From: Microcystis aeruginosa NIES-843
GTDB lineage: Bacteria; Cyanobacteriota; Cyanobacteriia; Cyanobacteriales; Microcystaceae
Direction of reading: 5' to 3'
Assembly: GCF_000010625.1 (NCBI RefSeq)
Contig: NC_010296.1
Span: 5,580,001 to 5,612,000, forward strand
DNA length: 32,000 bases
A program made the translations under genes and the position numbers. Positions 17,001 through 32,000 of the stretch are shown here, one piece after another. Within the stretch, counting starts at the first letter, position 1. Each line of letters opens with the position of its first letter. A model generated the notes under the pieces. That model ran no database searches. It had not been told where the DNA came from and worked only from the letters and a program-made list of their open reading frames with translations.

Positions 17001-19751
17001 TTAAACAAAGAAATTACCCACTGGAATGCTCCCTAAAGCAGGTAAAGTACCAGTAAATCCGGTGATATTCATTAATAAATCATTGCTGGATTGGAAGCCA
17101 TCTGTGCTATCATTAATAACGAGGTAAGTTCCAGCGATCGCACCAGTTGTTACTTGCACTAAGGCGGCACTATTAACCGCTAATTCTTGATTACCTGTAG
17201 TGGCTCCATTGGCATCAGTAAATACCTGATTGACTAAATTCTGTAAAGTGGTGACAGTGCTATTAGCAGCTCGACTGAAACTACTAGGCGCACTCATGGG
17301 AAGTCCACCTTGAGTTAATAAGTCGATTTTATCACTATTGATGGCAAAATCTGTGATACGATCGCTTGTTGATATGGTAGATTGGCCAAATTGGAAGATG
17401 AAAGTATCTGCACCTAAACCACCGGTTAAGGTATCAATTCCCGCACGTCCATTGATTTGATTATTGCCACTATTTCCGGTGATTTTATTGTTACCAGCGT
17501 TACCTGTACCATTAATATTATTAGTGCCAATTAGTCTGAGGTTTTCGACATTGTTGGGTAAGGTGCGAGTAATTGCGCTTTGTAGGGTGTCAGTAATAAT
17601 TACCTGTCCAATTGCTTCGTCGGGATTAACGGTAGCATTAACCGGATTGGAGAGGGTGACGGTGAAGACTTCATCAGGTTCATTGAGGTTATCATTGAGG
17701 AGGGGAATGCTAATAGTAGCGGTGGCAGTATTAGGTGCAATGGTGATAGTTCCAGTTTTGCTAGTGTAATCTACATTAGCGGTAGCGTTAATGGGTGCGG
17801 TGGTATAGTTGAAGGTAATTGGTTGTGGATTGGGGTTATCAACTGTGACGGTGAGGATGGCATTATTATCTTTACCTTCCACTACGGTGATGTCATTGAT
17901 GGAGAGTTGCGAGGTGACACTGGTATCGTCATTATTAATTGTTCCCGTGGCTGCGTTAGGAGTACCTACTGTATAACCTGTCCCCGCAGCAAGGGCTAAA
18001 ATGACAGTTTCATCACTTTCTACTATTGTGTCAGCAGTGGGGTCAACGGTTACGGTAGCAATCGCAGAATTAGCCTCGAAGGTGACACTGGTAGGAAGCA
18101 AAGTGTAATCGGTTCCGTTGGTTGCTGTCCCACCAATACTATAGTTAACCGTTAAGGGATTAGTTGTATCTCCTGTACGAATGAAGATATAGATGAGATT
18201 ACTTGTCCCGTCTTCAGTAACACTACTAGGAGAAATCGCAAGAGTAATACTAGGAAGTATGAGATCATCATTCGTAATTGTCCCCGTAACTGGAGTAGTC
18301 GTACCTATTGTATAACCTGTCCCCGCAGCGAGGGTTAAAATAACAGTTTCATCACTTTCTACTGTAGTATCAGCAGTCGGGTCAACTGTTACAGTCGCAG
18401 TGGATGAACCAGCAGCAAAGGTGACACTGGTGGGAATAGAAGCGTAATCGGTTCCATTGGTTGCTGTCCCACTAACTGTATAGTTAACAGTTAAAGCATC
18501 AGTGGTTACTCCGGTACGGGTGAAGGTATAGACTAAGTTAGTTGTCCCATCTTCTGTCACACTTGCGGGAGAAACTGCAAGGGTAATACTGGGAAGAGTC
18601 GGACTAGAAACATAGCTAAAATAACTAGCAGTTAGACTTAATGCTGTTTGATTACTGATATAAGCAATCAGTTCATCTGCTTCGTTTCCTGGTTTGTTGA
18701 TGTAGAGCTTAGTAGTGGAACCAGAAACTGTTAAGAGATAGTCACTACTTGAACCCCGTAGCTGAATTATATCATCAATGGTGCTAAAGTCGGCAATTGT
18801 CGCGTAGTCGCTAGTACCTTCAGTAGCTGTCAAACCGTCATCATAGAAGGTCTTTGTCGTATCTGCAAGGATAAAGCGATCGTTTCCTGAACCTCCTACT
18901 AAATCATCATATTCTCCTGTACCGCCATCTGTTCCTTGTAGGGTGTCATTCCCATTACCACCATAAAGATCATCATAACCATCTCCACCATTCAGGACAT
19001 CATTCCCATTCTCTCCATAAATGTAGTCACCACCAGCATTACCTGAAATAGTATCGTTACCACTTCCACCATACAAAGTTTCATAGTAGTAAACTCGTGT
19101 ACCGCCAAAAATGACATCATTATAATCAGTTCCCTTAAACCCGTTAAAACTCTCAATCGAAGTAAAGGTATCAGTTTCTGTACCGACAGTAATCGTCCCA
19201 CTCCCAGCGGTGTCGTAGGTCATGGTTAAACCACTACTACCATAGCTGTAGTCAGCAGCATAACTATCACTACCAGCACCACCATTTATCGTGTCATTAT
19301 CGCCTTCATCGCCGGTAAAGTAATCATCTCCTGCATCACCATTGAGGAGATCATTACCATTACCACCAAGAATGTTGTCACTACCAGCACCCCCATTCAG
19401 GACATCATTGCCATCACCACCATAAAGATAATCAGAATCATCTCCACCATTCAGGACATCATTCCCATTCTCTCCATAAATGTAGTCAAAACCAGCATTA
19501 CCTGAAATAGTATCGTTACCACCTCCACCTGAGAGAGCGCCCCAATATTCACTTGCTGTCCCGCCAAAAATGACATCATTATACTCAGTTCCCTTAAACC
19601 CATCAAAACTCTCAATCGAAGTAAAGGTATCAGTTTCTGTACCGACAGTAATCGTCCCACTCCCGGTAGCGGTATTGTAGGTCATGGTTAAACCGCTACT
19701 AGCACTACTGTAGTCAACCTCATAGCGATCAATCCCACTACCACCATTTAT
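17001..19751 (-). pseudogene. C-terminal segment of a disrupted RTX/Calx-beta exoprotein (ORF-track entry 17001..19778)
   Basis: It has GGxGNDxL calcium-binding nonapeptide repeats, two copies of a DRYEVDYSS...TITVGTETDTFTSIESF module, three Calx-beta-like domains (SITLAVSPASVTEDG...TGTITNDD) and a T1SS-type tail (GGLGADTFIF...DKIDLL). The first 9 ORF codons are IS1634-encoded. Confidence 0.85.
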
Positions 19752-21824
19752 CCCACATTCCGCACCCTCAACTGTCACATAAGCTGTCCCCCGCCAGAGA
19801 CTTGAGTAAAAATACTTAGCTGGTGAAGGTTTTCTCGGTGGCCGCTAGGGGGGCTTTGAGACCCTAATTATGAAAAAATAGGAATTGTTGGAAAACTGAG
19901 GCGAGTGGACTGTTCGACCATGAATCAATCAACAGAAATTGAAGTCAAAAATCTAGACCATCTGGGATTAGTAGCCGGAATTATCGATGAAATAGGAATC
20001 GTTGAAATTATCAACGAACAAGTCTCAATTGAGCGAGGAGAAATTGTCACAGCGGGGCAAGTCGTGAAAGCAATTATCCTGAATGGATTGGGATTTGTCT
20101 CCCGAGCCTTGTATTTATTTCCTCAATTTTTTGAAGATAAAGCAACCGAACATCTGCTGGGAGAAGGCATCGAAGCAAAACACCTGAATGATGATAAAAT
20201 TGGTCGAGTAATGGACAAACTTTATCAACTGGATGTTTCGGGTATTTTCCTACTCATCAGTTTAGCCGCCGTGAAAAAATTTGGTGTAGCAACCGAGAAC
20301 TCCCATTTAGATTCGACTTCTCTATCAGTAGAAGGAGAATATAAAAAGGAATACCCAACAGTAGAAATCCTGAAATCAGGAGCAGTGGGAGAAGAAATTG
20401 AAACCAGACAACAGCCAATAAAAATTACCTACGGATACTCCCGCGACCGAAGACCTGACTTAAAACAATTTATGATTGACTTAATCGTAAGTGGGGATGG
20501 AGATGTACCTTTATTCCTGAAAGTAGGGGACGGAAATGAAGCGGACAAAGCGGTTTTTGGTCAAATCGCCCGAGAATTTAAAAAACAAGTTGACTTTGAC
20601 AGTTTAATAGTCGGCGATAGCGCCCTCTATAGCAAAGAGAATTTAAAACTAATGAAAGAAATGCGTTGGTTGTCTCGAGTACCATTAAGCATTAAAGAGG
20701 CTCAAGAGTTAGTCGATAGCATCTCAGAAAAAGAGTTAACCGATTCAGAAATACCGGGTTATTCCTGGCGGGAAACAAGCTCTAACTATGGGGGTATAGA
20801 ACAAAGATGGTTGCTAGTTGAAAGTCAAGCTAGACAAGAATCAGACTTGAAAAAATTAGAGAAAAAAATCGAGCAAGAAAAGAATTCTGCCCAAGAAAAA
20901 ATCCGGCAACTATCCCGAAGAGAATTTGAGAATAGAGCGGTGGCGTTGGCGATAGCCAAAGGATTATCTGACTCCTTAAAATCTCATCAGTTAACGGAGA
21001 TTAAAGTCAATCTCATTCCGCCTGAGTCTCAGCAGTCAAAACTCAAATCAAAAGACGATTTGCCCTCTCAAAGCTATCAAGTTCAAGCCGAATTAGAGTT
21101 GAATTTGGCAGCGATTGAGAGGCTAAAGAAACGAGCAGGACGATTCGTTTTAGCAACTAACGATTTGGAGAAAAAACGATTGAGCAGTGAGGATATACTC
21201 AAAAAATATAAGGGGCAACAAGCTCCGGAAAGAGGATTTTCTTTTCTCAAAGACCCCTGCTTTTTTGCCCACAGTGTCTTTCTCAAATCTCCCCATAGAA
21301 TCGAGGTCATGGCCATGCTCATGGGCTTGTGCCTGCTGGTTTATACTATTGGTCAAAGACAACTTCGTTTAAGTTTAAAACAGCAGGAGACGGGACTGAA
21401 AAATCCGTTGGGTAAGTTAACTGACCGACCGACGTTACGCTGGATATTTCAGTGCTTTCAAGGGATTCATCTCGTCCGTATTCAAGACAATCAAAAGATT
21501 AGCAACTTAACGGATGAGAGGCGCAACATTTTGAGATTTTTTCCCAAACCTTGCCAGGAATATTATCTCTTATCTTGACCAGATGGATTGACTTCAAGGG
21601 GTGACAAAACAAAGCGAGCAACTGGAACATCTCCCCCTAGATGTTAAGTCTGATTGCCTAGTCATTCTCAACAAGCACTGTTTATTGAGAATGACCGGGG
21701 GAACTCTGAAATTTTCGGCTTAGTTGCCGGCAGCTTGCCGCCAACTCACTCCTCTAGATAAGTATTTTGACTCGCGCCCCTTCCTCTTTTGAGACGTTGT
21801 GACACTTAGGGTGCGGAATGTGGG
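19752..21824 (+). mobile_element. Complete IS1634-family insertion sequence (2073 bp)
   Basis: The inverted repeats are CCCACATTCCGCACCCT (19752-19768) and AGGGTGCGGAATGTGGG (21808-21824). The 6-bp TSD ATTTAT occurs at 19746-19751 and 21825-21830. Confidence 0.9.
19920..21578 (+). CDS. IS1634 family transposase
   Basis: The N-terminus MNQSTEIEVKNLDHLGLVAGIIDEIGIVEIIN is the characteristic IS1634-group start. The ORF track starts at a GTG at 19905, and the ATG at 19920 is more plausible. Confidence 0.85.
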   Translation: MNQSTEIEVKNLDHLGLVAGIIDEIGIVEIINEQVSIERGEIVTAGQVVKAIILNGLGFVSRALYLFPQFFEDKATEHLLGEGIEAKHLNDDKIGRVMDKLYQLDVSGIFLLISLAAVKKFGVATENSHLDSTSLSVEGEYKKEYPTVEILKSGAVGEEIETRQQPIKITYGYSRDRRPDLKQFMIDLIVSGDGDVPLFLKVGDGNEADKAVFGQIAREFKKQVDFDSLIVGDSALYSKENLKLMKEMRWLSRVPLSIKEAQELVDSISEKELTDSEIPGYSWRETSSNYGGIEQRWLLVESQARQESDLKKLEKKIEQEKNSAQEKIRQLSRREFENRAVALAIAKGLSDSLKSHQLTEIKVNLIPPESQQSKLKSKDDLPSQSYQVQAELELNLAAIERLKKRAGRFVLATNDLEKKRLSSEDILKKYKGQQAPERGFSFLKDPCFFAHSVFLKSPHRIEVMAMLMGLCLLVYTIGQRQLRLSLKQQETGLKNPLGKLTDRPTLRWIFQCFQGIHLVRIQDNQKISNLTDERRNILRFFPKPCQEYYLLS

Positions 21825-22594
21825 ATTTATCGTGTCATTACCTGCATCATTGGTAAAGCGATCATCGCCTGTATCACCATTGAGGAGATCATTCCCACTA
21901 CCACCATAAAGTTCATCAGAACCATCTCCACCATTGAGGACATCATTTCCATCCTCTCCATAAATGTCGTCATAACCAGCATTACCTGAAATAGTATCGT
22001 TACCACTTCCACCATTGAGTCCACCATAATAATAATAAGATTCACTTTCTGTCCCGCCAAAAATGACATCATTATACTCAGTTCCCTTAAACCCGTTAAA
22101 ACTCTCAATCGAAGTAAAGGTATCAGTTTCTGTACCGACAGTAATCGTCCCACTCCCGGTAGTGGTATTGTAGGTCATGGTTAAACCGCTACTAGCACTA
22201 CTGTAGTCAACCTCATAGCGATCAGTCCCACTACCACCATTTATCGTGTCATTACCTGCATCGTTGGTAAAGTAATCACTTCCATCCCCACCGTCAAGAG
22301 AGTCATTACCATTACCCCCATAAATATTATCGCTTCCCCCCAAACCACTTAAAGTATCATTGCCATCTAACCCAAAAATATTATCACTTGCAGAAGTTCC
22401 CGTAATATTATCATCCCCATTAGTACCCGTAAAATTCGCCTGTTCTACTTGAATAATTTCCCCATTTACTATAATTGTTGTCTGGTCATTCTCTCCTCGT
22501 AAAGCGTCTAAGGTTGCCACATCCAGACTATTTCCTTGAACCAACTCCGCAAAAATCGCCCCCTCATCTCCGGCGCTATCCACCTGATTAATTT
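21825..22594 (-). pseudogene. Middle segment of the disrupted RTX/Calx-beta exoprotein (ORF-track entry 21720..22583)
   Basis: It has RTX-type GGxGND repeats and one DRYEVDYSS module. The ORF continues from ...NDAGNDTIN into IS-encoded residues. Upstream it joins ...VDAQIN-QVDSAGDEGA... once the MITE is removed. Confidence 0.8.
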
Positions 22595-22781
22595 GGCTCT
22601 TCGGTAATTGTTATGCAATGGACGGGGGTTATAAGGGATGGAACCCTTATATAGAAAGGCATTTAGCGATTTTTGTCAATTATTTTTGATCTAGAGCGAA
22701 CTAATCAATTAAGTCTCTTACCAGATAAGGATTTAGTCGATTTATGACCCCCTATCGAACCATACCAAGTAACGAAGAACC
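22595..22781. mobile_element. 187-bp ISL3-derived MITE (copy 2, inverted relative to copy 1)
   Basis: Its ends are GGCTCTTCGGTAATTGTTATGCAATGGACGGG... and ...GTAACGAAGAACC. The 8-bp TSD ATTAATTT occurs at 22587-22594 and 22782-22789. It is nearly identical to the reverse complement of 5136-5322. Confidence 0.9.
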
Positions 22782-23123
22782 ATTAATTTGAGCATCCACA
22801 TAATGCCCAATTTCTTCTAAAATTACATTAACTATCGCTGCTGACGAGGCCGTATTTAAAAAAGATGCTGATAAATAAATCTTATTGGTACTACTGGAAT
22901 ATGCACCATTCGCCGTCCCTAAAACTTCATCACTGAGTACCTCAATTGGGGGAATTTGACTAAAATTTCGGCTTTTCCACTGCTGTTGTAGTTCTGTCGC
23001 CTTAACCACATCATAACTTGTGCCAAAAGCGATAGCCAAATTCGCCCAAAAGCCATCAGATTGAGCGAAATTAAACAAAACATCGTCAACAGCAGGAAGA
23101 ATCGACAAAAGAGAGAGAGTCAT
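22782..23123 (-). pseudogene. N-terminal segment of the disrupted exoprotein (ORF-track entry 22752..23123)
   Basis: The segment MTLSLLSILPAVDD...AYSSSTNKIYLSASFL...VILEEIGHYVDAQIN then reads into the MITE (GSSLLGMVR-stop). Confidence 0.75.
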
Positions 23124-23204
23124 GACAGTAACAGCAAAAGTTTATTGATAACAGTTTTAGCCTAACAATCCCCAATCTTTCAAGGGGGATATAACAAAAA
23201 TTTA

Positions 23205-23256
23205 CAGAAAACGGGTTTCTCGAAGGAACCCGTTTTCTAAGAAACCCGTTTTCTAG
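23205..23256. repeat. Palindromic repeat cluster (AGAAAACGGGTTTCT-type hairpin plus an extra half-site)
   Basis: The sequence is CAGAAAACGGGTTTCTCGAAGGAACCCGTTTTCTAAGAAACCCGTTTTCTAG. A related cluster lies in the same orientation at 29131-29213. Confidence 0.7.
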
Positions 23257-23645
23257 ATATTGATTTTTGCCAAAGACTGCTTAAATTCTGCGAGAGAATT
23301 AGCGGTAGCTGCTAATTTAACAATCTCTTGTAATGTAGATAGTAACGAAACTTTATTCAGGTATTGTTCCACATCTAAAGGAACTTCACCTAATCGAGAT
23401 TCCAAAACTGTTTTGACAAAATCACGAGCATTTTCTAACGCGCCAATTTCCTTACCAATTTCCTTGCCAATTTCCTTACCGCGTTCCATTCCTCGTAACT
23501 CCATATTACTCATTAAAGGCATGGTTTTTTCCTCGTCAAATTGTTTGATTTTACTCTCTAAACTTGACTGCAATTCAGGGGATAAAGTCATCATATTGTC
23601 GATGATTTCAAACAGTTTACTAAGTAAAGTAGTTATTACCCACAC
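23253..23645 (-). pseudogene. Orphan C-terminal (DUF4351-type tail, haplotype B) fragment of an Rpn-family gene
   Basis: Homology to the full-length paralogs starts abruptly at KLFEIIDNMM (23619) and runs to the stop. It is nearly identical in DNA to the tail of 25745..26332. Only a GTG overlapping the upstream stop is available as a start. Confidence 0.75.
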
Positions 23646-24607
23646 TACTTATTTATGATGATACTAAAAGACTTCCTACACTCCTCAAAAGAATTTACTA
23701 TAAGTGCGGCTTTTAACATCTCTTCTAAAACCGAAATAACTGAAGCATCATTGAGACATTGTCCAATATCTCCAGGGATATCGCCTAGTCGGTTTTCCAA
23801 AACTTTTTTCACAAAATCACGAGCATTTTCTAACGCTCCAATTTCCTTACCGCGTTCTATCCCTCGTAACTCCATATTACTCATTAAAGGCATGGTTCTT
23901 TCCTCCTCAAATTGTTTGATTTTACTTTCTAAACTTGACTGTAATTCAGAGGATAAAGTCATCAGATTGTCGATGATTTCAAACAGTTTAATTATCTGTT
24001 CCCTCTCGAACTCCTTTTCATACAATCCCCTGATTAACTTCCACTTCCACTGTTCCCGTTGTGGCAGCTTCCCAGTAGTCGCTTTTGTTTTCAGGTGTGC
24101 CATGACTATTATAGCAAAAGGATTGCTACTTGCTTCTAGTTCTGTCCATCTTTCCTCATAGTCCAGTAATTTAACCGTTGGGAATTTCAAACTCACTTCA
24201 CAGCCAGCGATAGTATAATTATAGGAATCTGGTCGCCAATTTACTCGTTCATCTCCTAAAATTGCCAGACTGATAACCGGTTTCTGATACAAATCAAAGG
24301 CCCGATAGTTATAAATATACATCCTCTGAGGGAAATTTTCTTCGTATTGACTTTGAATTTCAATATGAATCAAAATCCAGACTTCTTCACCCCTGAGTAA
24401 CCAGACTTTATAGAGTTTGTCAGCGAAACGTTTTTTTGTCTTTGCTGAAGCGGTAATCCGTTTGAGTTCTTTTTCTAGGGATTCGGGAGTTTTTGTCCAA
24501 TCAATTAATTGGTGAACTTCAGGAAAAAAGAAGTATAAAAACGCTTCAAAATACTCGGTTAATGCTTCTTTCCAGGGTTCATCATAATTGGCGGTTGTTG
24601 GGTTCAT
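23645..24607 (-). CDS. Rpn family recombination-promoting nuclease / putative transposase (PD-(D/E)XK plus DUF4351), copy 4, tail haplotype C
   Basis: The 320-aa ORF has the N-terminus MNPTTANYDEPWKEALTEYFEAFL, a nuclease core FADKLYKVW...VWILIHIEIQSQYE, one GKEI unit and the unique tail ...DFVKKVLENRLGDIPGDIGQCLNDASVISVLEEML... Confidence 0.8.
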   Translation of the reverse strand: MNPTTANYDEPWKEALTEYFEAFLYFFFPEVHQLIDWTKTPESLEKELKRITASAKTKKRFADKLYKVWLLRGEEVWILIHIEIQSQYEENFPQRMYIYNYRAFDLYQKPVISLAILGDERVNWRPDSYNYTIAGCEVSLKFPTVKLLDYEERWTELEASSNPFAIIVMAHLKTKATTGKLPQREQWKWKLIRGLYEKEFEREQIIKLFEIIDNLMTLSSELQSSLESKIKQFEEERTMPLMSNMELRGIERGKEIGALENARDFVKKVLENRLGDIPGDIGQCLNDASVISVLEEMLKAALIVNSFEECRKSFSIIINK

Positions 24608-24628
24608 TGGAGAAGAAAATTACTGAGA

Positions 24629-25651
24629 CTATTGTTCTAAAAGTTGATGCAACTCATCAAAAGAATTAACGGTTAATGCCGATTTCAGTAACTCGTCTAA
24701 AATCGATAATACAGAAATTTTATCAACAGCTTGCTCAATTTCTATTGGAATGTCACCCAATCGCGTTTTCAGCACCGTTTTAACATAGTTACGAGCATTT
24801 TCTAACGCTCCAATTTCCTTACCAATTTCCTTGCCAATTTCTTTACCGCGTTCTATCCCTCGTAACTCCCCAATTTCCTTGCCAATTTCCTTACCGCGTT
24901 CTATTCCTCGTAACTCCATATTACTCATTAAAGGCATCGTTCTTTCCTCCTCAAATTGTTTGATTTTACTCTCTAAACTTGACTGCAATTCAGGGGATAA
25001 AGTCATCATATTGTCGATGATTTCAAACAGTTTAATTATCTGTTCCCTCTCGAACTCCTTTTCATATAATCCCCTGATTAACTTCCACTTCCACTGTTCC
25101 CGTTGTGGCAGCTTCCCAGTAGTCGCTTTTGTTTTCAGGTGTGCCATGACTATTATAGCAAAGGGATTGCTACTTGCTTCTAGTTCTGACCAGCTTTCCT
25201 CATAGTCCAGTAATTTAACCGTTGGGAATTTGAGGCTGACTTCACAACCGGCGATAGTATAATTATAGGAATCTGGTCGCCAATTTACTCGTTCATCTCC
25301 TAATATAGCGAGACTGATAACCGGTTTCTGATACAAATCAAAGGCCCGATAGTTATAAATATACATCCTCTGAGGAAAATTTTCTTCGTATTGACTTTGA
25401 ATTTCAATATGAATCAAAATCCAGACTTCTTCACCCCTGAGTAACCAGACTTTATAGAGTTTGTCAGCAAAACGTTTTTTTGTCTTTGCTGAAGCGGTAA
25501 TCCGTTTGAGTTCTTTTTCCAGGGATTCGGGAGTTTTTGTCCAATCAATTAATTGGTAAACTTCAGGAAAGAAGAAGTATAAAAACGCTTCAAAATACTC
25601 GGTTAATGCTTCTTTCCAGGGTTCATCATAATTGGCGGTTGTTGGGTTCAT
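24629..25651 (-). CDS. Rpn family nuclease paralog, copy 3, tail haplotype A
   Basis: The 340-aa ORF has the same N-terminal module. Its GKEI tract is duplicated (2 units, then ELRGIER, then 3 units). Its tail, NYVKTVLKTRLGDIPIEIEQAVDKISVLSILDELL..., is identical to that of copy 1. Confidence 0.8.
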   Translation of the reverse strand: MNPTTANYDEPWKEALTEYFEAFLYFFFPEVYQLIDWTKTPESLEKELKRITASAKTKKRFADKLYKVWLLRGEEVWILIHIEIQSQYEENFPQRMYIYNYRAFDLYQKPVISLAILGDERVNWRPDSYNYTIAGCEVSLKFPTVKLLDYEESWSELEASSNPFAIIVMAHLKTKATTGKLPQREQWKWKLIRGLYEKEFEREQIIKLFEIIDNMMTLSPELQSSLESKIKQFEEERTMPLMSNMELRGIERGKEIGKEIGELRGIERGKEIGKEIGKEIGALENARNYVKTVLKTRLGDIPIEIEQAVDKISVLSILDELLKSALTVNSFDELHQLLEQ

Positions 25652-26321
25652 GAATTACGACAACAGTTTTAATTGTTCTCCGCTTCTGGCTAAGAGTTTA
25701 AAGGTGAATGGGTGAGCAGTGCAGCACCCTAGGGTAAGATTTTCTTATTGGATTCTTGCCAAAGACTGCTTAAATTCTGCGAGAGAATTAGCGGTAGCTG
25801 CTAATTTAACAATCTCTTGTAATGTAGATAGTAACGAAACTTTATTCAGGTATTGTTCCACATCTAAAGGAACTTCACCTAATCGAGATTCCAAAACTGT
25901 TTTGACAAAATCACGAGCATTTTCTAACGCTCCAATTTCCTTACCAATTTCCTTACCGCGTTCTATTCCTCGTAACTCCATATTACTCATTAAAGGCATG
26001 GTTCTTTCCTCCTCAAATTGTTTGATTTTACTCTCTAAACTTGACTGCAATTCAGGGGATAAAGTCATCATATTGTCGATGATTTCAAACAGTTTAATTA
26101 TCTGTTCTCTCTCGAACTCCTTTTCATATAATCCCCTGATTAACTTCCACTTCCACTGTTCCCGTTGTGGCAGCTTCCCAGTAGTCGCTTTTGTTTTCAG
26201 GTGTGCCATGACTATTATAGCAAAGGGATTGCTACTTGCTTCTAGTTCTGACCAGCTTTCCTCATAGTCCAGTAATTTAACCGTTGGGAATTTGAGGCTG
26301 ACTTCACAACCGGCGATAGTA

Positions 26322-27412
26322 GGCCAATTCAAGTCTGAATTGCATCACTGTCTGATCTACCTTTATAGAATACCTCATTCGGGGTACGATAGTCAAGACA
26401 TTTTCGAGGACGATTGTTAATCAAGTTTACGGCTCTTTCCACCTCCTCTGGCTTAACGATTTTAAAATTCGTTCCCTTGGGGAAAAATTGTCTTAACAGT
26501 CCCTTGGTATGCTCGTTTAATCCCCTCTCCCACGAATGATAAGGAGTAGCAAAATAAAAATCTGCTCCTAGTTTCTGACTCAACTCTTGATGTCCACAAA
26601 ATTCTTTGCCGTTGTCACAAGTAAAGGTTTTTCTTTTGTCAGGGTGAATCTCTTGAAAAAGTTTTTCTGTGACTCTATTGATTTCCGATGCGGTTTTGTT
26701 TTTGGCTAATCCTGCTCCTAAAAATTTCGAGGCTTTATCTACATGAGTAACGAGAACTCCTAGATGATTGCCTCCAATCATTGTGTCACTTTCCCAATGA
26801 CCGATTTCAGTTTTCTGGTCAGCAATTACTGGTCGCTCGCTGATATCTACACGCCCTGGAATCCCTCCACGCTTACTTTTTGCTCCGCCTCGACTCTTTC
26901 TTTGACAAAGCCCCCGGCGTAAATATTTCTGGTACTCTCCACATCCGTGATAGTTCTGATAGATCATTTGATAGATGGTTTCGTGACTGAGAGATTCTTG
27001 ACTGGCTCTTTTCAGACGACCTGCTATTTGTTCGGGACTATGATAATCTTTCAATCCTTCTTTGACCAACTCTAAGGCTGACTCGCTGACATTTTTAAAG
27101 GGTTGTTTGGCATTTTTTCGCCTTGTCTCGCTTTGAGCTTGTGCTGTGTCAGGTAGATAGCAGCCAAGGGAACTTTGATTCCTTTTTAATTCCCGTGATA
27201 TTGTGCTTTGATGACATCCGAGCCAGACGGCCATTTGCCGTTGAGATAAATTTCCCTCCTGACTAAGTTGGTAGAGCAAGTTTCTTTGTTCTATGTTAAG
27301 ATGTTGGTGGCTCATTTTGGGTCTGATTTGTTTTTGTTAATGATCAGACAGTACCTGATGAGCCTTTCTTTGTCAACTCTTGAGGTTGATGCGTTTCATT
27401 TTTGAATTGGCG
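26322..27412 (-). mobile_element. Complete IS30-family insertion sequence (1091 bp)
   Basis: The inverted repeats are GGCCAATTCAA (26322-) and TTGAATTGGCG (-27412). The 3-bp TSD GTA occurs at 26319-26321 and 27413-27415, within the sequence GCGATAGTATAATTATAGG that is intact in the paralogs. Confidence 0.85.
26329..27315 (-). CDS. IS30 family transposase
   Basis: The 328-aa ORF has an N-terminal HTH region (LSQRQMAVWLGCHQSTISRELKRN) and DDE-region motifs HWESDTMIG, TCDNGKEF and YHSWERGLNEHTKGLLRQF. Confidence 0.9.
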   Translation of the reverse strand: MSHQHLNIEQRNLLYQLSQEGNLSQRQMAVWLGCHQSTISRELKRNQSSLGCYLPDTAQAQSETRRKNAKQPFKNVSESALELVKEGLKDYHSPEQIAGRLKRASQESLSHETIYQMIYQNYHGCGEYQKYLRRGLCQRKSRGGAKSKRGGIPGRVDISERPVIADQKTEIGHWESDTMIGGNHLGVLVTHVDKASKFLGAGLAKNKTASEINRVTEKLFQEIHPDKRKTFTCDNGKEFCGHQELSQKLGADFYFATPYHSWERGLNEHTKGLLRQFFPKGTNFKIVKPEEVERAVNLINNRPRKCLDYRTPNEVFYKGRSDSDAIQT

Positions 27413-27819
27413 GTATAATTATAGGAATCTGGTCGCCAATTTACTCGTTCATCTCCTAATATAGCGAGACTGATAACTGGTTTCTGATACAAATCAAAGG
27501 CCCGATAGTTATAAATATACATCCTCTGAGGAAAATTTTCTTCGTATTGACTTTGAATTTCAATATGAATCAAAATCCAGGCTTCTTCACCCCTGAGTAA
27601 CCAAACTTTATAGAGTTTGTCAGCGAAACGTTTTTTTGTCTTTGCTGAAGCGGTAATCCGTTTAAGTTCTTTTTCTAGGGATTCGGGAATTTTTGTCCAA
27701 TCAATTAGTTGGTGAACTTCAGGAAAAAAGAAGCATAAAAACGCTTCAAAATACTCGCTTAATGCTTCTTTCCAGGGTTCATCATAATTGGCGGTTGTTG
27801 GGTTCATTGGAGAAGAAAA

Positions 27820-28803
27820 TTACTGATAATATTGTTCTAAAAGTTGATGCAACTCATCAAAAGAATTAACGGTTAATGCCGATTTCAGTAACTCGTCTAA
27901 AATCGATAATACAGAAATTTTATCAACAGCTTGCTCAATTTCTATTGGAATGTCACCCAATCGCGTTTTCAGCACCGTTTTAACATAGTTACGAGCATTT
28001 TCTAACGCTCCAATTTCCTTACCTATTTCCTTACCTATTTCTTTACCGCGTTCCATTCCTCGTAACTCCATATTACTTACTAAAGGCATGGTTCTTTCCT
28101 CCTCAAATTGTTTGATTTTACTCTCTAAACTTGACTGCAATTCAGGGGATAAAGTCATCATATTGTCGATGATTTCAAACAGTTTAATTATCTGTTCTCT
28201 CTCGAACTCCTTTTCATATAATCCCCTGATTAACTTCCACTTCCACTGTTCCCGTTGTGGCAGCTTCCCAGTAGTCGCTTTTGTTTTCAGGTGTGCCATG
28301 ACGATTATAGCAAAGGGATTGCTACTTGCTTCTAGTTCTGACCAGCTTTCCTCATAGTCCAGTAATTTAACCGTTGGGAATTTGAGGCTGACTTCACAAC
28401 CAGCGATAGTATAATTATAGGAATCTGGTCGCCAATTTACTCGTTCATCTCCTAATATAGCGAGACTGATAACCGGTTTCTGATACAAATCAAAGGCCCG
28501 ATAGTTATAAATATACATCCTCTGAGGGAAATTTTCTTCGTATTGACTTTGAATTTCAATATGAATCAAAATCCAGACTTCTTCACCCCTGAGTAACCAG
28601 ACTTTATAGAGTTGGTCAGCGAAACGTTTTTTTGTCTTTGCTGAAGCGGTAATCCGTTTGAGTTCTTTTTCTAGGGATTCGGGAGTTTTTGTCCAATCAA
28701 TTAATTGGTGAACTTCAGGAAAAAAGAAGTATAAAAACGCTTCAAAATACTCGGTTAATGCTTCTTTCCAGGGTTCATCATAATTGGCGGTTGTTTGTTT
28801 CAT
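27820..28803 (-). CDS. Rpn family nuclease paralog, copy 1, tail haplotype A
   Basis: The 327-aa ORF starts MKQTTANYDEPWKEAL..., has three GKEI units and carries tail haplotype A. Only 12 nt (GGAGAAGAAAAT) separate its stop from the start of copy 2. Confidence 0.8.
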   Translation of the reverse strand: MKQTTANYDEPWKEALTEYFEAFLYFFFPEVHQLIDWTKTPESLEKELKRITASAKTKKRFADQLYKVWLLRGEEVWILIHIEIQSQYEENFPQRMYIYNYRAFDLYQKPVISLAILGDERVNWRPDSYNYTIAGCEVSLKFPTVKLLDYEESWSELEASSNPFAIIVMAHLKTKATTGKLPQREQWKWKLIRGLYEKEFEREQIIKLFEIIDNMMTLSPELQSSLESKIKQFEEERTMPLVSNMELRGMERGKEIGKEIGKEIGALENARNYVKTVLKTRLGDIPIEIEQAVDKISVLSILDELLKSALTVNSFDELHQLLEQYYQ

Positions 28804-28873
28804 TATGACAATTTTAGTGGGTTGTTGTCAGAAGGCGATCGCTAACATAAGAACTAAGCAGTTAAAGTATTTA

Positions 28874-29065
28874 GGGTTTGCTGAAAAAGTTTTTCCTGGG
28901 GGCAGGGTGTAGGGTTTTAGCGATTTTGAGGGGGTCAATTACTTAATTTTCAGGGAAAAAGTCCCGGAATTTTCCACCCGATCACTCCCAGATATGGCAC
29001 TTTTTGGTTTCCAAAAAGTCTAAAAGTTTTACCCAACAAGGTTTTTAGATTTATTCAGCAAGCCC
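28874..29065. mobile_element. 192-bp MITE of the GGGTYTGCTGAATAA-terminus family (copy B, inverted relative to copy A)
   Basis: The right terminus is TTATTCAGCAAGCCC and the left is degenerate (GGGTTTGCTGAAAAAG). The 6-bp TSD TATTTA occurs at 28868-28873 and 29066-29071. Its interior matches the reverse complement of 7687-7907. Confidence 0.75.
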
Positions 29066-29130: not shown

Positions 29131-29213
29131 CAGAAAACGGGTTTCTCGAAAAAAACCGTTTTCTAAATAGTTTCTCAAAGAAACCCGTTTTCTAAATAGA
29201 AACCCCTTTTCTC
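29131..29213. repeat. Palindromic repeat cluster related to 23205-23256
   Basis: The sequence is CAGAAAACGGGTTTCTCGAAAAAAACCGTTTTCTAAATAGTTTCTCAAAGAAACCCGTTTTCTAAATAGAAACCCCTTTTCTC. It overlaps the last 13 codons of the oxygenase ORF. Confidence 0.7.
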
Positions 29214-30647
29214 AGTTGAGATTGCTTCTGCGCCTTTTTCTGATTTTTCTTGCCAAGTACCGTGAAAACTGGGAGGGATAACACTGGGTAATTGCAGACA
29301 GCAAAGGGGGTCTTTTTCTAACTGCTGACTATCATAGATTCTCACTTGGCTGCTGTGATTATTGCCGTCGTAAACCACGACGATTAACCATCCCGTTTCT
29401 GGAGATAAACCATCGCAGACAAAAATCGGTTCACTTCCATAACAGTTATTTTCTAGATAAGCAATAGTTAACTTACCTGTGGAGTGATTATAACAAGCGG
29501 GAAGTCCGATAATTTCCCGACGAATATCGCTATCGGGACGATGGACAGCTAAAAAAGTATTTTGCCATTTTTGTCCCACCAGCTGCGGGGAAACCACGGG
29601 AAAATCACAGCTTAAATCCGAGAGAATTTCCTGATTAATCACCTTTGCTGATAGGGGATTAATAGTAATACTTGCTAATTTTCCGATGGCTAAGGTTTCG
29701 GTTTCACCCGTGGCAACTTCTTTTAAAAATTGATTAGTTTTAAAGTCGTCATAACGGACAAAAACAATTTCAAGATTGCCTTGGTCATTCACACAACCAT
29801 TAGCGAAGTGCCATTGAAACCATGAATCTGTAACACTTTCACTGACTAATTGCAGAGAATCTCGCTCAAAAATTAGTATTCTTGTTCCTAATTCTGGCTG
29901 CCACTGCATGGCATCACTAAAAGTTTTAAATCCCAACAGTATCGATAATTTATCCGCTTTTATTGGTGGGACGAAAAAGACGAGATACTGTCCTGCTAAA
30001 ACAAAGTCATGCAGCAGAGACAATCTATCTAACTCAAAAGTGTTTTTCTGGATAATTTGACCAGTGGAGTCAGACTTATAGAGATTTAAACTAACTTTGG
30101 CACTGATTGTCACCCCGAAATTAAAAATCTCTCCTCTGGACAAATCTAGCTTAGGATGAGCGGAAAAAGTTTCCTTTGCTTGTAAGCTAGATAAATTATC
30201 TAAGCCTAGGGTTTCTAAAGATTGTAAATCTAATTTATGGGGAAAACCCCCTTCCCAGAGAGCTAATAATTTATCGGGTAAAGCTAACACCGAGGTATTA
30301 GCGGCATTTTTTACCTCTTTTCCCCAATTATTCCAAAAGAAGCCGGGGGCATTCATGCCATAATTAGGAAATAAATATTGATTAGCGGCACTTTCTTGCT
30401 GATAACCGGCAGTCTGGACATAACGATAGGTGGCACTGACTCCCTTATCATGAAAATGTACAGCTAAAACTGCCCCATCTCCGTCAAACCAATGACCAAC
30501 TTTCTGCTTACCTCTTTCTAATCTCCCCGGACCATTGCGATAGAGACTACCCCGCAATCCGTCAGGAATTTTCCCCGATAATAAGGTTAATTGCGTTTCA
30601 GAAAATTCCACTGCTGGTTTTTCTAAAGATTTTGCCCAAGCTTTCAT
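29175..30647 (-). CDS. Carotenoid cleavage oxygenase (RPE65 / apocarotenoid oxygenase family)
   Basis: The 490-aa ORF has the motifs GSLYRNGPG, HWFDGDGA, FSAHPK, HDF, WFQWHFAN and a C-terminal PPSFHGTW, which mark the four-His iron site pattern of this family. The last ~20 residues run into the palindromic repeats and may be a non-native extension. Confidence 0.85.
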   Translation of the reverse strand: MKAWAKSLEKPAVEFSETQLTLLSGKIPDGLRGSLYRNGPGRLERGKQKVGHWFDGDGAVLAVHFHDKGVSATYRYVQTAGYQQESAANQYLFPNYGMNAPGFFWNNWGKEVKNAANTSVLALPDKLLALWEGGFPHKLDLQSLETLGLDNLSSLQAKETFSAHPKLDLSRGEIFNFGVTISAKVSLNLYKSDSTGQIIQKNTFELDRLSLLHDFVLAGQYLVFFVPPIKADKLSILLGFKTFSDAMQWQPELGTRILIFERDSLQLVSESVTDSWFQWHFANGCVNDQGNLEIVFVRYDDFKTNQFLKEVATGETETLAIGKLASITINPLSAKVINQEILSDLSCDFPVVSPQLVGQKWQNTFLAVHRPDSDIRREIIGLPACYNHSTGKLTIAYLENNCYGSEPIFVCDGLSPETGWLIVVVYDGNNHSSQVRIYDSQQLEKDPLCCLQLPSVIPPSFHGTWQEKSEKGAEAISTEKRGFYLENGFL

Positions 30648-30762: not shown

Positions 30763-31455
30763 TTATAAAGTATCGGGATCAATTCCCAGATAACGGATAT
30801 ATTCAGCTAAACGTTCAGCTTTAAGACGCTCTTGTTCTAATTGTAAACTTGCTTGTTCAGCTTTAAGACGCTCTTGTTCTAACCTTTGAGATAATTCGAT
30901 AGAAGTCAAAAATTTCTGACCATCTAAACTATAAATTTCTAACTCATCTTCTCTCAATTCAAATCGGATATTTAACCGAGGACTAACCCATCCCTTAATC
31001 TCAGGTATAGAACTTAATAGTCCTTTCTGTCTCAACCATCCTTGAAAATTATGATAATCGGGATCATAGAGATAGTATTCTTCCACTCCATAACGTTGAT
31101 AAAAGAGGAGTTTTCGCTCCATTTCTTCTAAACTATTAGAAGGGGAGAGAATTTCAAAGACCACTTGAGGAGCGATGTTATCTTCTTGCCATTGTTTATA
31201 GGAACCCCTTCTTCCTTTCGGACGACCAAATACTACCATAACATCGGGAGCAACTGGTCCGGTAATTTTTTTATCTTGGACGGGATACCAGAGGAGATCT
31301 CCCGCAATAAAAACGTTAGGAGAATTAGCAAAGAGAATCTCAAGATTTTCTTTAATTTTCACGATCCATTCGTATTGTTCGGTATTATCGGCCATGGGTT
31401 TACCGTCACTATCGGGGTATTCAATATCTGGATCAATAGCTGGTGTAAAGGTCAT
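30763..31455 (-). CDS. Uma2 family (DUF820) PD-(D/E)XK endonuclease with a coiled-coil C-terminal extension
   Basis: The 230-aa ORF has YPDSDGKPMADNT, PDVMVVFGRPKGRRGSYKQWQEDNIAPQVVFEILSPSN (the D...E-x-L/K core) and EEYYLYDP, followed by the repeats LEQERLKAEQASLQLEQERLKAE. Confidence 0.85.
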   Translation of the reverse strand: MTFTPAIDPDIEYPDSDGKPMADNTEQYEWIVKIKENLEILFANSPNVFIAGDLLWYPVQDKKITGPVAPDVMVVFGRPKGRRGSYKQWQEDNIAPQVVFEILSPSNSLEEMERKLLFYQRYGVEEYYLYDPDYHNFQGWLRQKGLLSSIPEIKGWVSPRLNIRFELREDELEIYSLDGQKFLTSIELSQRLEQERLKAEQASLQLEQERLKAERLAEYIRYLGIDPDTL

Positions 31456-31476: not shown

Positions 31477-32000
31477 TCATAAAGTCTCGGGATCAATTCC
31501 CAGAGAACGGATATATTCAGCTAAACGTTCAGCTTTAAGACGCTCCTGTTCTAATTGTAAACTTGCTTGTTCTAATTGTAAACTTGCTTGTTCAGCTTTA
31601 AGACGTTCTTGTTCCAATTGTAACCTTGCTTGTTCAGCTTTTTGGGATAACTCGATAGAACTTAAAAATTTCTGACCATCTAAACTATAAATTTCTAACT
31701 CATCTTCTCTCAATTCAAATCGGATATTTAACCGAGGACTAACCCATCCCTTAATCTCAGGTATAGAACTTAATAGTCCTTCCCGTCTCAACCATCCTTG
31801 AAAATTATGAGAATCCGGATCATAGAGATAGTATTCTTCCACTCCATAACGTTGATAAAAGAGTAGTTTTCGCTCCATTTCTTCTAAACTATTAGAAGGG
31901 GAGAGAATTTCAAAGACCACTTGAGGAGCGATGTTATCTTCTTGCCATTGTTTATAGGAACCCCTTCTTCCTTTCGGACGACCAAATACCACCATAACAT
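31477..32000 (-). CDS. Uma2 family endonuclease, tandem paralog, partial; the N-terminus lies outside the window
   Basis: It is nearly identical in DNA to 30763..31280 but has a longer coiled-coil repeat tract. The ORF-track start MVVFGRPKG corresponds to an internal position (about residue 73) of the neighbouring copy, so the gene continues past 32000. Confidence 0.85.
   Translation of the reverse strand, partial: VMVVFGRPKGRRGSYKQWQEDNIAPQVVFEILSPSNSLEEMERKLLFYQRYGVEEYYLYDPDSHNFQGWLRREGLLSSIPEIKGWVSPRLNIRFELREDELEIYSLDGQKFLSSIELSQKAEQARLQLEQERLKAEQASLQLEQASLQLEQERLKAERLAEYIRSLGIDPETL

What the first reader, a model, noticed from the sequence alone, without database searches (positions are those of the whole stretch)
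23253..23647. Orphan tail cassette sitting 25 nt behind Rpn copy 4, suggesting C-terminal displacement or a stand-alone tail module
Copy 4 ends with the unique haplotype-C tail (stop codon at 23645-23647). After a 25-nt unrelated spacer (23620-23644), homology to the paralogs resumes exactly at codons KLFEIIDNMMTLSPELQ. It then runs through a complete haplotype-B tail with its own stop.

Both copy 4 and the orphan therefore carry the same ~50-codon conserved arm (KLFEIIDN...MELRG.ERGKEIG) upstream of different tails. This is the geometry expected if an incoming tail displaced the resident one by recombination in that arm. Rhs/CdiA-type polymorphic toxin loci show the same pattern, with displaced C-terminal tips accumulating downstream.

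Alternatively, the fragment could be expressed on its own as a small tail-only protein starting from the conserved internal Met-Met. That would be analogous to the intragenic small protein reported for E. coli Rpn genes.
Basis: partly seen in the sequence, partly recalled or inferred. Interest (0 to 1): 0.72.

Follow-up and report, generated by a model that had tools for sequence, protein, structure and literature searches.

The report
Stand-alone Rpn antitoxin-like tail gene
Behind the last of four tandem Rpn-like nuclease genes of a Microcystis genome sits a conserved mini-gene holding only the variable C-terminal part, most likely a free-standing copy of the small "antitoxin" that E. coli Rpn genes make from an internal start; this kind of gene is already known in E. 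coli, so it is a real but only moderately new finding.

Summary
After the stop of copy 4 (23645-23647) and a 25-26 nt unrelated spacer, homology to the paralogs resumes at KLFEIIDN (23618) and runs to a stop at 23253. The orphan's tail is identical (0/170 nt) to the tail of the IS-disrupted copy 2.

It is not a recent, strain-specific displacement. The same junction occurs in 44 instances from many Microcystis genomes and metagenomes, always after tail C. The cassette behind it varies in tail class (A, B, C or D) and in the number of GKEI repeats. Orphans are sometimes stacked.

The family is a remote Rpn/YhgA-like PD-(D/E)XK nuclease with a DUF4351-like tail. It has a conserved internal Met/Val preceded by a Shine-Dalgarno-like EEE tract, and 4-residue repeats in a long helix. 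These are the hallmarks of the RpnL/RpnS toxin-antitoxin described by Zhong et al. 2023, who also describe stand-alone rpnSs genes such as ypaA.

Best reading: a stand-alone RpnS-like gene, probably starting at ATG 23522, that also serves as a recombination substrate for tail exchange. Expression is untested. I rate it a new variant of a known kind, with moderate interest.

The parts
23253..23645 (-). Orphan ORF as listed mechanically (GTG 23645 ... TAG 23253, 130 aa). The GTG overlaps the stop of copy 4 (TAGTG).
   Evidence: Gene callers call exactly this product in a metagenome contig. The GTG is GGG in 12 of 44 homologous junctions, so it is not a conserved start.
23619..23644 (-). Junction spacer, unrelated to the paralogs. 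The T at 23619 may already belong to the homology.
   Evidence: Unique in the window. No similarity above shuffles to the gene or its intergenic spacers. The same spacer is present in all 44 junctions; the search pattern left only two positions free, and these read CC in 40 and AT in 4.
23523..23618 (-). Conserved arm (KLFEIIDNMMTLSPELQSSLESKIKQFDEEKT), 96 nt upstream of the proposed internal start.
   Evidence: It differs from the four paralogs at 2-6 of 96 positions. No indels in 74 arms from 39 loci, and polymorphisms are shared between orphans and full-length genes.
23548..23553 (-). TAAAAT, a candidate -10 element of an internal promoter (inference only).
   Evidence: No variant falls in this hexamer among 74 arms; position. 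The consensus promoter scan found no full -35/-10 pair in the arm.
23529..23537 (-). Shine-Dalgarno-like purine tract: GACGAGGAA here, GAGGAGGAA in the paralogs.
   Evidence: GAGGA is kept 8-12 nt before the ATG in 43 of 43 orphans and 33 of 33 full copies. The corresponding EEE is conserved in distant relatives.
23253..23522 (-). Proposed RpnS-like coding sequence (MPLMSNM...KINI, 89 aa plus stop).
   Evidence: The start column is M in 47 and V in 9 of 60 relatives. It falls in the low-confidence linker 238-243 of the full-length model. The 89-aa model has pLDDT 91.4. Profile match to E. coli YpaA, E 3e-4.
23445..23480 (-). Three 12-nt repeats encoding GKEI.
   Evidence: The window's copies have 1, 2, 3, 3 and 2+3 repeats. 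The segment between SNM and the tail spans 12-48 residues across loci.
23253..23441 (-). Tail B (DUF4351-like helical domain) with its stop codon.
   Evidence: 0 of 170 nt differences from copy 2's tail. In relatives PF14261 maps to this region.
23205..23255 (-). Strong hairpin followed by a T-rich stretch, terminator-like. It is a copy of a palindromic element.
   Evidence: dG -24.6 kcal/mol, z -4.4. The same element follows most tail B and D cassettes in other strains and also lies at 29132-29212.
23645..24607 (-). Copy 4: full-length Rpn-like gene with tail C and one GKEI repeat, the constant upstream partner of the orphan.
   Evidence: Tail C is followed by the junction in all 44 junction instances. 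Two of these (L041, L042) were picked by a tail-C protein rather than by the junction, and there the gene is followed by an overlapping small gene.
25745..26332 (-). C-terminal part of copy 2, holding the only other tail B in the window (two GKEI repeats).
26329..27315 (-). IS30-type transposase gene that interrupts copy 2.
   Evidence: HTH_38 and rve domains. The N-terminal part of copy 2 is 27373-27807.
24629..25651 (-). Copy 3: full-length, tail A, with a 48-nt internal duplication in the repeat region.
27820..28803 (-). Copy 1: full-length, tail A, three GKEI repeats.

Best explanation
The fragment is a stand-alone gene for the small C-terminal protein of an Rpn-like toxin-antitoxin family. 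It is the Microcystis counterpart of E. coli rpnSs genes such as ypaA.

Proposed mechanism, by analogy with Zhong et al. 2023:
- The full-length genes encode a PD-(D/E)XK nuclease (L).
- An internal start, just after an SD-like GAGGAGGAA, yields a small helical protein (S). S pairs with the identical C-terminal domain of L and blocks it.
- Pairing specificity is set by the tail sequence and by the number of 4-residue GKEI repeats in the long first helix.

The orphan keeps everything such an S gene needs:
- the 96-nt arm, with the SD-like tract and possibly an internal promoter;
- the ATG at 23522;
- three repeats and tail B;
- a terminator-like hairpin.

Shown here: the anatomy, its conservation across Microcystis, purifying selection on orphan tails, and recombination between arms.

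Inferred: that the orphan is translated from 23522, and that the product binds an L protein.

Because its arm matches that of copy 4, one homologous crossover would fuse copy 4's nuclease domain to the orphan's repeats and tail. The cassette is therefore also a ready substrate for tail switching.
For: Family:
- Invariant or nearly invariant D9, D63, E83, Q85 and R95 in 60 relatives. hhalign aligns D63, E83, Q85 and R95 with RpnA D63, E82, Q84 and R94; D9 matches D11 by eye. These are the residues whose mutation abolishes or alters RpnA's phenotypes (PMC5350276).
- NCBI names 84-89% identical Microcystis proteins 'Rpn family' or 'RpnC/YadD family'.
- 12 of 60 relatives hit DUF4351 in the tail. 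Zhong et al. say separate RpnS genes carry this annotation.

Internal start:
- M in 47 and V in 9 of 60 relatives at that column, with EEE at -5 to -3.
- It lies in the pLDDT dip between domains.
- GAGGA plus ATG is kept in 43 of 43 orphans, while the overlapping GTG is lost in 12 of 44.
- The first GKEI starts 14 residues after that Met, inside the 8-20 range given by Zhong et al..

Repeats: GKEI has the composition they describe. Repeat number differs in nearly every copy.

Conservation:
- Identical junction in 44 instances.
- About 31 of 36 complete orphans are intact.
- Tail pN/pS is 0.44 (orphan D) and 0.32 (orphan A), against 0.30-0.44 in full genes.

Other:
- Hairpin after the stop.
- S profile against YpaA, E 3e-4.
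- Precedent: ypaA lies 12 nt after rpnE, and RpnESs is made in vivo.
Against: - There are no expression data of any kind.
- The orphan itself has no Pfam hit. Copy 4 is below threshold for PF04754 and TIGR01784.
- Foldseek does not retrieve the RpnAS crystal structure or anything significant.
- By the E. coli rule (same tail, same repeat number) the orphan has no cognate L in the window. Copy 2 has tail B but only two repeats, and it is broken by an IS.
- About 5 of 36 orphans elsewhere are truncated.
- Arm N/S ratios are near 1.
- Purifying selection on tails could have acted while they sat in full-length genes, then been carried over by gene conversion.
- The tail-B pN/pS is uninformative (3 haplotypes, 1.27).
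Confidence: 0.6

Rival explanations
1. It is an inert remnant: a gene fragment left by one old deletion (or partial duplication) next to tail C. It is kept looking healthy only by gene conversion from the full-length paralogs, and it hitch-hikes with copy 4.
For: - Arm polymorphisms are shared with full-length genes, so conversion is active.
- About 5 of 36 orphans are truncated.
- The overlapping GTG is lost in 12 of 44.
- RefSeq flags the E. coli counterpart ypaA as a pseudogene.
- No cognate L lies in cis.
Against: - The junction persists across many strains and at several loci per genome, with the reading frame, SD-like tract and ATG intact in 43 of 43.
- Tail D, found mostly in orphans in this sample (20 complete orphans against 1 full-length copy), shows pN/pS 0.44.
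- E. coli YpaA is in fact synthesised.
- Nuclease domains decay (IS insertion, core deletion) more visibly than the S cassettes.
Confidence: 0.22
2. It is primarily a silent cassette reservoir. The orphan exists to be recombined into the expressed nuclease gene through the arm, switching the tail and repeat specificity of L and S together, as with orphan C-terminal modules of polymorphic toxins or silent pilin cassettes. This can coexist with the best explanation.
For: - All four tail classes occur at the orphan position behind the same junction.
- Stacked orphans occur. In L009 the orphan-C repeat and tail are identical to those of the upstream full C, the expected duplication product of an unequal arm-arm crossover.
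- Full-length genes with tails B and D are common.
Against: - No fusion event was caught directly.
- Recombination among tandem repeats happens anyway and need not be the selected function.
- No dedicated recombination machinery or site is seen.
Confidence: 0.3
3. The product is the whole 130-aa ORF, translated from the GTG that overlaps copy 4's stop codon (TAGTG) by translational coupling.
For: - The stop-start overlap is present in 32 of 44 junctions.
- The frame is open from GTG.
- Gene callers predict this product.
Against: - GTG is GGG in 12 of 44 otherwise intact orphans.
- No SD-like sequence precedes it.
- The first 8 residues come from the unrelated spacer, and the next ones are a truncated helix of the L protein.
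Confidence: 0.1
4. It reflects a recent C-terminal displacement in this strain: tail C arrived and pushed the resident tail B downstream.
For: The geometry fits, with the same arm upstream of both tails.
Against: The identical tail C - spacer - arm junction is found in 44 instances from several Microcystis species and many metagenomes, with different cassettes behind it. The junction therefore predates this strain.
Confidence: 0.04

Closest known systems
E. coli rpnSs genes: ypaA (RpnESs) downstream of rpnE, and rpnCSs downstream of rpnC (Zhong et al. 2023, PMC10400941)
   Same: - A small gene holding only the variable C-terminal part sits a few nucleotides after the stop of a full-length rpn gene: 12 nt in E. 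coli, 25-26 nt here.
- Both have 4-residue repeats near the N-terminus.
- Both share an M...ER...G-x-x-x-G...LExxF pattern.
   Different: - In E. coli the downstream S groups with the S of its own upstream gene. Here 40 of 42 orphans (loci) carry a tail class different from the upstream tail C, and the window's orphan matches copy 2 instead.
- The Microcystis orphan keeps 96 nt of coding arm upstream of the start, whereas ypaA starts at its Met.
- Orphans can be stacked.
RpnL/RpnS genes-within-genes toxin-antitoxin (RpnA-E, RpnP2)
   Same: - A PD-(D/E)XK core with matching key residues.
- An internal start with SD.
- A helical tail whose 4-residue repeat number varies between strains.
- Tandem arrays.
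   Different: - Only remote sequence similarity: BLASTP to RpnA finds nothing and Pfam and TIGRFAM scores are below threshold.
- The PDDEI motif is not evident.
- The tail is longer: one long helix plus three short ones.
- No activity was tested.
Orphan C-terminal modules of Rhs/CdiA polymorphic toxin loci
   Same: A displaced or spare variable module retains a piece of the conserved region that can serve as a homology arm. Modules accumulate downstream of the main gene.
   Different: - The variable part here is not the toxin, and no immunity gene follows it.
- No Rhs/YD or CdiA features are present.
- The conserved N-terminal part is the presumed toxin.
Pfam DUF4351 (PF14261) stand-alone small proteins
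   Same: The tail of relatives matches this 59-position domain over residues about 255-312.
   Different: The orphan and the window's paralogs do not reach E 0.01 against the model.

Membership tests
Rpn / YhgA-like nucleases (PF04754, TIGR01784, COG5464) - applies to copy 4 and its paralogs | Match to PF04754 or TIGR01784 at or above the curated cut-off | tested here: not met
   PF04754 17.2 bits against a cut-off of 21 (E 0.004). TIGR01784 16.8 bits against 52.1. Five of 60 relatives reach E<1e-3, best 4.3e-5.
Rpn / YhgA-like nucleases (PF04754, TIGR01784, COG5464) - applies to copy 4 and its paralogs | PD-(D/E)XK core residues mutated in RpnA (D11, D63, E82, Q84, R94) | tested here: met
   D9, D63, E83 and R95 are invariant and Q85 is at least 90% conserved in 60 relatives. 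hhalign places D63, E83, Q85 and R95 on RpnA D63, E82, Q84 and R94. D9 (NYDEPWK) against D11 (PHDALFK) was matched by eye. The residue list comes from PMC5350276.
Rpn / YhgA-like nucleases (PF04754, TIGR01784, COG5464) - applies to copy 4 and its paralogs | Conserved PDDEI motif in the second half of the transposase_31 domain | tested here: inconclusive
   No PDDE in copy 4; the nearest conserved motif is NPFA..V.AHL. The profile alignment to RpnA does not extend that far.
Rpn / YhgA-like nucleases (PF04754, TIGR01784, COG5464) - applies to copy 4 and its paralogs | Restriction-endonuclease-like fold | tested here: inconclusive
   The AF2 model has pLDDT 94.3 with an alpha/beta N-terminal domain. 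The best Foldseek PDB matches are PD-(D/E)XK nucleases (EcoO109I, NucS/EndoMS, Kpn2I), but all have E>=0.1.
RpnS / rpnSs small antitoxin (DUF4351, PF14261) - applies to the orphan | Match to PF14261 | tested here: not met
   The orphan has no hit at E<=0.01. Twelve of 60 full-length relatives hit it (best 1.1e-19), in the region homologous to the tail.
RpnS / rpnSs small antitoxin (DUF4351, PF14261) - applies to the orphan | Own translation start with a ribosome-binding site at the head of the variable C-terminal domain | tested here: met
   This is a sequence signature only. M or V in 56 of 60 relatives with EEE upstream. GAGGA plus ATG in 43 of 43 orphans. The site lies in the interdomain linker. 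Use of the start was not tested.
RpnS / rpnSs small antitoxin (DUF4351, PF14261) - applies to the orphan | Four-residue repeats (one hydrophobic plus charged residues or Gly) beginning 8-20 residues after the start Met, with number varying between strains | tested here: met
   GKEI x3 begins 14 residues after M(PLMSNM). There are 1-5 or more units in the paralogs, and the repeat-containing segment spans 12-48 residues across 39 loci. The criterion is from PMC10400941.
RpnS / rpnSs small antitoxin (DUF4351, PF14261) - applies to the orphan | Separate gene immediately downstream of a full-length rpn gene | tested here: met
   It lies 25-26 nt after copy 4's stop. All 44 junction instances directly follow a tail-C end. 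Two of them were found through a tail-C protein rather than the junction, each followed by an overlapping small gene.
RpnS / rpnSs small antitoxin (DUF4351, PF14261) - applies to the orphan | Downstream S is a close copy of the upstream gene's own S (E. coli pattern) | tested here: not met
   The orphan tail differs from copy 4's tail at 51 of 170 nt and from copy 2's at 0 of 170. Only 2 of 42 orphans carry tail C.
RpnS / rpnSs small antitoxin (DUF4351, PF14261) - applies to the orphan | Helical bundle with a long first helix that carries the repeats (RpnAS crystal structure) | tested here: inconclusive
   The model has helix 6-44 plus three short helices, pLDDT 91.4. Foldseek against the PDB gives no match below E 1.9. 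The profile against YpaA gives E 3e-4 over 30 columns.
RpnS / rpnSs small antitoxin (DUF4351, PF14261) - applies to the orphan | The small protein is made and blocks the cognate RpnL nuclease | not testable with these tools
   This needs expression and neutralisation assays.
Rhs/CdiA-type polymorphic toxin orphan modules | Variable C-terminal toxin tip followed by a cognate immunity gene; Rhs/YD or CdiA core with a demarcating motif | tested here: not met
   No such domains in the orphan or its paralogs. The variable part is DUF4351-like. The orphan is followed by a hairpin and then an RTX-type gene, not an immunity gene.

The most novel reading that the evidence does not exclude
Microcystis Rpn-like arrays form a cassette-switching system. 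The invariant 'tail C - spacer - arm' junction would act as a docking point behind which spare repeat-and-tail cassettes (A, B, C, D, sometimes stacked) are stored. Arm-mediated crossovers would move them into and out of the expressed nuclease gene. This would re-pair toxin and antitoxin specificities under phage pressure, and orphan S proteins with non-cognate tails could also neutralise L proteins encoded elsewhere or arriving by transfer.
Probability: 0.2. Interest if true: 0.7.

Novelty: new variant of a known kind. Interest (0 to 1): 0.45.

Why it matters
Rpn systems were recognised as genes-within-genes toxin-antitoxin and anti-phage modules only in 2023, and almost all of the evidence comes from E. 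coli. Microcystis is a bloom-forming cyanobacterium under heavy phage pressure. It carries tandem arrays in which nearly every copy has a different combination of repeat number and tail, plus a genus-wide stand-alone tail gene whose specificity usually differs from that of its neighbour.

If the orphan is expressed, it is a natural case of an uncoupled antitoxin specificity. It would give a ready-made matrix of tails and repeat numbers for testing how Rpn L-S pairing is encoded and how it diversifies.

Practically, these 89-130 aa ORFs are annotated as hypothetical proteins (or mis-named) in public records and could be named.

Tried and rejected
- Residual homology in the 25-26 nt spacer: none above shuffles, and the spacer is unique in the window.
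- Canonical sigma-70 promoter in the arm: the scan finds none there. The TAAAAT idea rests on invariance alone.
- Direct sequence links to solved structures: phmmer and hmmsearch of copy 4, of the 60-member family alignment and of the S-domain alignment give nothing meaningful.
- Foldseek against the PDB for the full-length and the S-domain models: nothing significant, and RpnAS is not retrieved.
- BLASTP of copy 4 against E. coli RpnA: nothing.
- Phage-borne S-like genes (possible anti-defence): none in IMG/VR or in GenBank phages.
- Structured RNA in 22500-29000: no Rfam family.
- Exact copy 4 protein in public assemblies: not on record.
- Origin of the junction (deletion, partial duplication or incoming displacement): all three predict the same geometry. 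Every tail-C gene seen carries the junction, so this could not be resolved.
- An apparent recurrent nonsense allele in the nuclease domain turned out to be a recurrent internal deletion.
Full report
**1. Observation**

On the minus strand the window holds a tandem array:
- copy 1: 28803-27820, 327 aa;
- copy 2: N-terminal part 27807-27373 and C-terminal part 26332-25745, split by an IS30-type transposase gene at 27315-26329;
- copy 3: 25651-24629, 340 aa;
- copy 4: 24607-23645, 320 aa;
- a 130-codon ORF: 23645-23253.

The DNA alignment shows that the last ORF matches the paralogs without gaps from AAACTG (K-L of KLFEIIDN, 23618) onward. The 25-26 nt between copy 4's stop and that point are unrelated. 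They are unique in the window, and they are no more similar to the gene or its intergenic spacers than shuffled sequence.

Within the window the 96-nt arm differs from the paralogs at 2-6 positions. The tails fall into three classes that differ at 51-58 of 170 nt. The orphan's tail equals copy 2's (0/170), and copy 1's equals copy 3's (0/170).

**2. Organism and family**

All close protein matches are from Microcystis.

Copy 4 and its paralogs score below threshold for PF04754 (YhgA-like) and TIGR01784. BLASTP to E. coli RpnA finds nothing. Several lines nevertheless point to a remote Rpn-like family:
- An exhaustive search finds 5721 clusters of relatives.
- In an alignment of 60 of them, D9, D63, H81, E83 and R95 are invariant and Q85 is nearly so.
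- A profile comparison places D63, E83, Q85 and R95 on RpnA D63, E82, Q84 and R94. Together with D11, these are the residues whose mutation abolishes or alters RpnA's phenotypes (PMC5350276).
- NCBI names 84-89% identical Microcystis proteins 'Rpn family recombination-promoting nuclease' or 'RpnC/YadD family protein'.
- Twelve of the 60 relatives match DUF4351 (PF14261) in the region homologous to the tail.

An AlphaFold model of copy 4 (pLDDT 94.3) shows an alpha/beta N-terminal domain and helical linkers. Confidence dips at residues 238-243. A 31-residue helix then carries the GKEI repeats, followed by three short helices. Foldseek gives only weak, non-significant matches, the best of which are PD-(D/E)XK nucleases.

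I therefore treat the family as a remote, Rpn-like lineage rather than a certified PF04754 member.

**3. Published framework**

Zhong et al. 2023 (PMC10400941) showed the following:
- rpn genes are toxin-antitoxin genes-within-genes. The full-length nuclease RpnL is blocked by RpnS, the variable C-terminal domain translated from an internal start.
- Four-residue repeats (one hydrophobic residue plus charged residues or Gly) begin 8-20 residues after that Met.
- Their number varies between strains and sets L-S specificity.
- RpnS can also be a separate gene (rpnSs), annotated DUF4351 in some species. Examples are ypaA downstream of rpnE and rpnCSs downstream of rpnC.

In MG1655, ypaA starts 12 nt after rpnE's stop.

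**4. Do the hallmarks apply here?**

- **Internal start.** The Met of MPLMSNM is M in 47 and V in 9 of 60 relatives at 32-56% identity. No other residue appears more than once. It is preceded by E-E-E at -5 to -3. At the DNA level this is GAGGAGGAA(A/G)AACC-ATG, present in 33 of 33 full copies and 43 of 43 orphans with at most one change; the window's orphan has GACGAGGAA. The Met sits in the interdomain linker.
- **Weak start for L.** The full-length genes are preceded by a pyrimidine-rich TTTTCTTCTCCA with no such tract. This would fit S being made in excess of L. That is inference.
- **Repeats.** GKEI has the published composition, and the first unit begins 14 residues after the Met. The window's five cassettes carry 3, 2, 2+3, 1 and 3 units. 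Across 39 loci the segment ranges from 12 to 48 residues.
- **Link to YpaA.** A profile of the S region matches E. coli YpaA at E 3e-4, across the repeats and an LExxF motif.
- **S-domain model.** The 89-residue product from ATG 23522 models confidently (pLDDT 91.4) as one long helix plus three short ones. Foldseek finds no PDB match, so the fold comparison with RpnAS stays open.

**5. The orphan elsewhere**

A search with the orphan returned 552 proteins. The top 120 are all 104-224 aa, and many start (M/V)WVIPTLLSKLFEIIDN.

Searching the junction as DNA gave 6 stretches in species-representative genomes and 27 in metagenomes. Protein look-ups added more. In total:
- There are 44 junction instances. 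All directly follow the end of tail C (…SFSIIINK*).
- Two of them came from loci chosen by a tail-C protein rather than by the junction; there the tail-C gene is followed by an overlapping small gene.
- The cassette behind the junction varies in class. Among the 42 orphans in the loci analysed there are 21 tail D, 7 tail B, 5 tail A, 2 tail C and 7 cut off or disrupted. It also varies in repeat number.
- Each tail travels with its own 3' flank. Tail A is followed by the usual spacer and another full-length gene. Tails B and D are mostly followed by a palindromic hairpin element.
- Orphans are stacked in L009 (full C, orphan C, orphan D) and L022 (full C, orphan C, orphan A, full D). In L009 the orphan-C repeat and tail equal those of the upstream gene.
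- One genome, M. ichthyoblabe, has three such loci.

**6. What this says about origin**

The junction is fixed, so it arose once and predates the strains sampled. There are no variable endpoints and no residual homology in the spacer.

A single deletion of the 5' 205 codons of a following copy, a partial tandem duplication, and an incoming tail-C fragment all predict this geometry. I found no tail-C gene without the junction that could tell them apart.

Ongoing recombination through the arm is shown by three things:
- identical polymorphisms in orphan and full-length arms, with no indel in 74 arms;
- the assortment of tails at the orphan position;
- the stacked duplicates.

Full-length genes with tails B and D are common, so the 'same gene carrying tail B directly' exists.

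**7. Is the orphan maintained?**

- About 31 of 36 complete orphans are intact.
- Tail pN/pS is 0.44 for orphan D and 0.32 for orphan A, like full-length tails (0.30-0.44). Tail B has too few haplotypes to judge.
- The GTG that overlaps copy 4's stop is GGG in 12 of 44, whereas the internal ATG is always present. This argues for the internal start.
- A strong hairpin (dG -24.6 kcal/mol, z -4.4) follows the stop, so the orphan lies inside the array's presumptive transcription unit.

Caveats: gene conversion could import selection that acted elsewhere. Arm N/S is near 1 in both classes. No expression data exist.

**8. Specificity puzzle**

By the E. coli rule, an S neutralises only an L with the same repeat number. 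The orphan (tail B, three repeats) has no partner in the window: copy 2 has tail B but only two repeats, and it is interrupted. In other loci too the orphan rarely matches a neighbour; L009 is the exception.

This differs from E. coli, where the downstream S groups with its upstream S. It is the feature that makes the Microcystis arrangement a variant rather than a plain new member.

**9. Verdict**

The stand-alone small protein reading is favoured. Recombination through the arm is real. Recent displacement is rejected. The Rhs/CdiA analogy holds for geometry only.
- The thing is a conserved, genus-wide stand-alone RpnS-like cassette, already known in kind from E. coli.
- Interest is moderate.

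Noticed in passing
window 25745-27807: Copy 2 of the array is split by an IS30-type transposase gene (26329-27315; HTH_38 and rve domains). A protein identical to its C-terminal fragment (P0014, 195 aa) is listed from nr as M. aeruginosa.
   Followed up: partly
window 17001-23123: The large RTX/Calx-beta gene downstream of the array appears fragmented into ORFs 22752-23123, 21720-22583 and 17001-19778. An IS4-type transposase gene (DUF4277 and DDE_Tnp_1, 19905-21578) lies in between. In other strains one large HemolysinCabind gene follows the orphan.
   Followed up: partly
window 23206-23254 and 29132-29212; many loci: The palindromic element GAAAACGGGTTTCTT..GAGAAACCCGTTTTC, often in 2-3 tandem copies, brackets the whole Rpn-like array. 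It also follows most tail B and D cassettes in other strains. It may be a terminator, a repeated extragenic palindrome, or a recombination hotspot.
   Followed up: partly
L001 ~14427, L006 ~3468 and ~4219, L008 ~1421, L037 ~3957: There is a recurrent internal-deletion allele of the nuclease domain. Residues about 68-156, including the IHIEIQS catalytic core, are replaced by SVISYQLSVISD* (heptamer-type AGTTATC repeats). The arm, repeats and tail stay intact. These look like toxin-dead, antitoxin-proficient copies.
   Followed up: partly
window 24831-24960 (copy 3 repeat region) and several loci: Besides the 12-nt GKEI unit there is a larger 48-nt duplication unit (ELRGIERGKEIGKEIG). It recurs in many strains, in both orphans and full genes.
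   Followed up: no
window 23260-23658, 23655-24161, 24831-25205, 25719-26267 (+ strand): Long antisense ORFs (…PISLPISLPRSIPRNS…) mirror every copy. They repeat with the array and have no independent support, so they are probably a by-product of the sense-strand codon composition.
   Followed up: no
window 28802-28831 (- strand): The best promoter-like site of the region (CTGACA-18-CATAAT with an upstream TG) ends inside the ATG of copy 1. If real, it would give a leaderless or nearly leaderless mRNA.
   Followed up: no
window 30763-31455 and 31477-31995: Two adjacent paralogous ORFs share repeats that are about 89-90% identical; the first is a Uma2-family (putative restriction endonuclease) gene. 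They lie upstream of the array, past an RPE65-family gene at 29175-30647. An ISL3 transposase gene lies at 3336-4550.
   Followed up: no
P0039, P0041, P0044, P0061 and others: JGI names for these small orphan or fragment proteins ('(p)ppGpp synthase/HD superfamily hydrolase', 'Yka UPF0111/DUF47 family') look like mis-annotations. No such domains were found.
   Followed up: no
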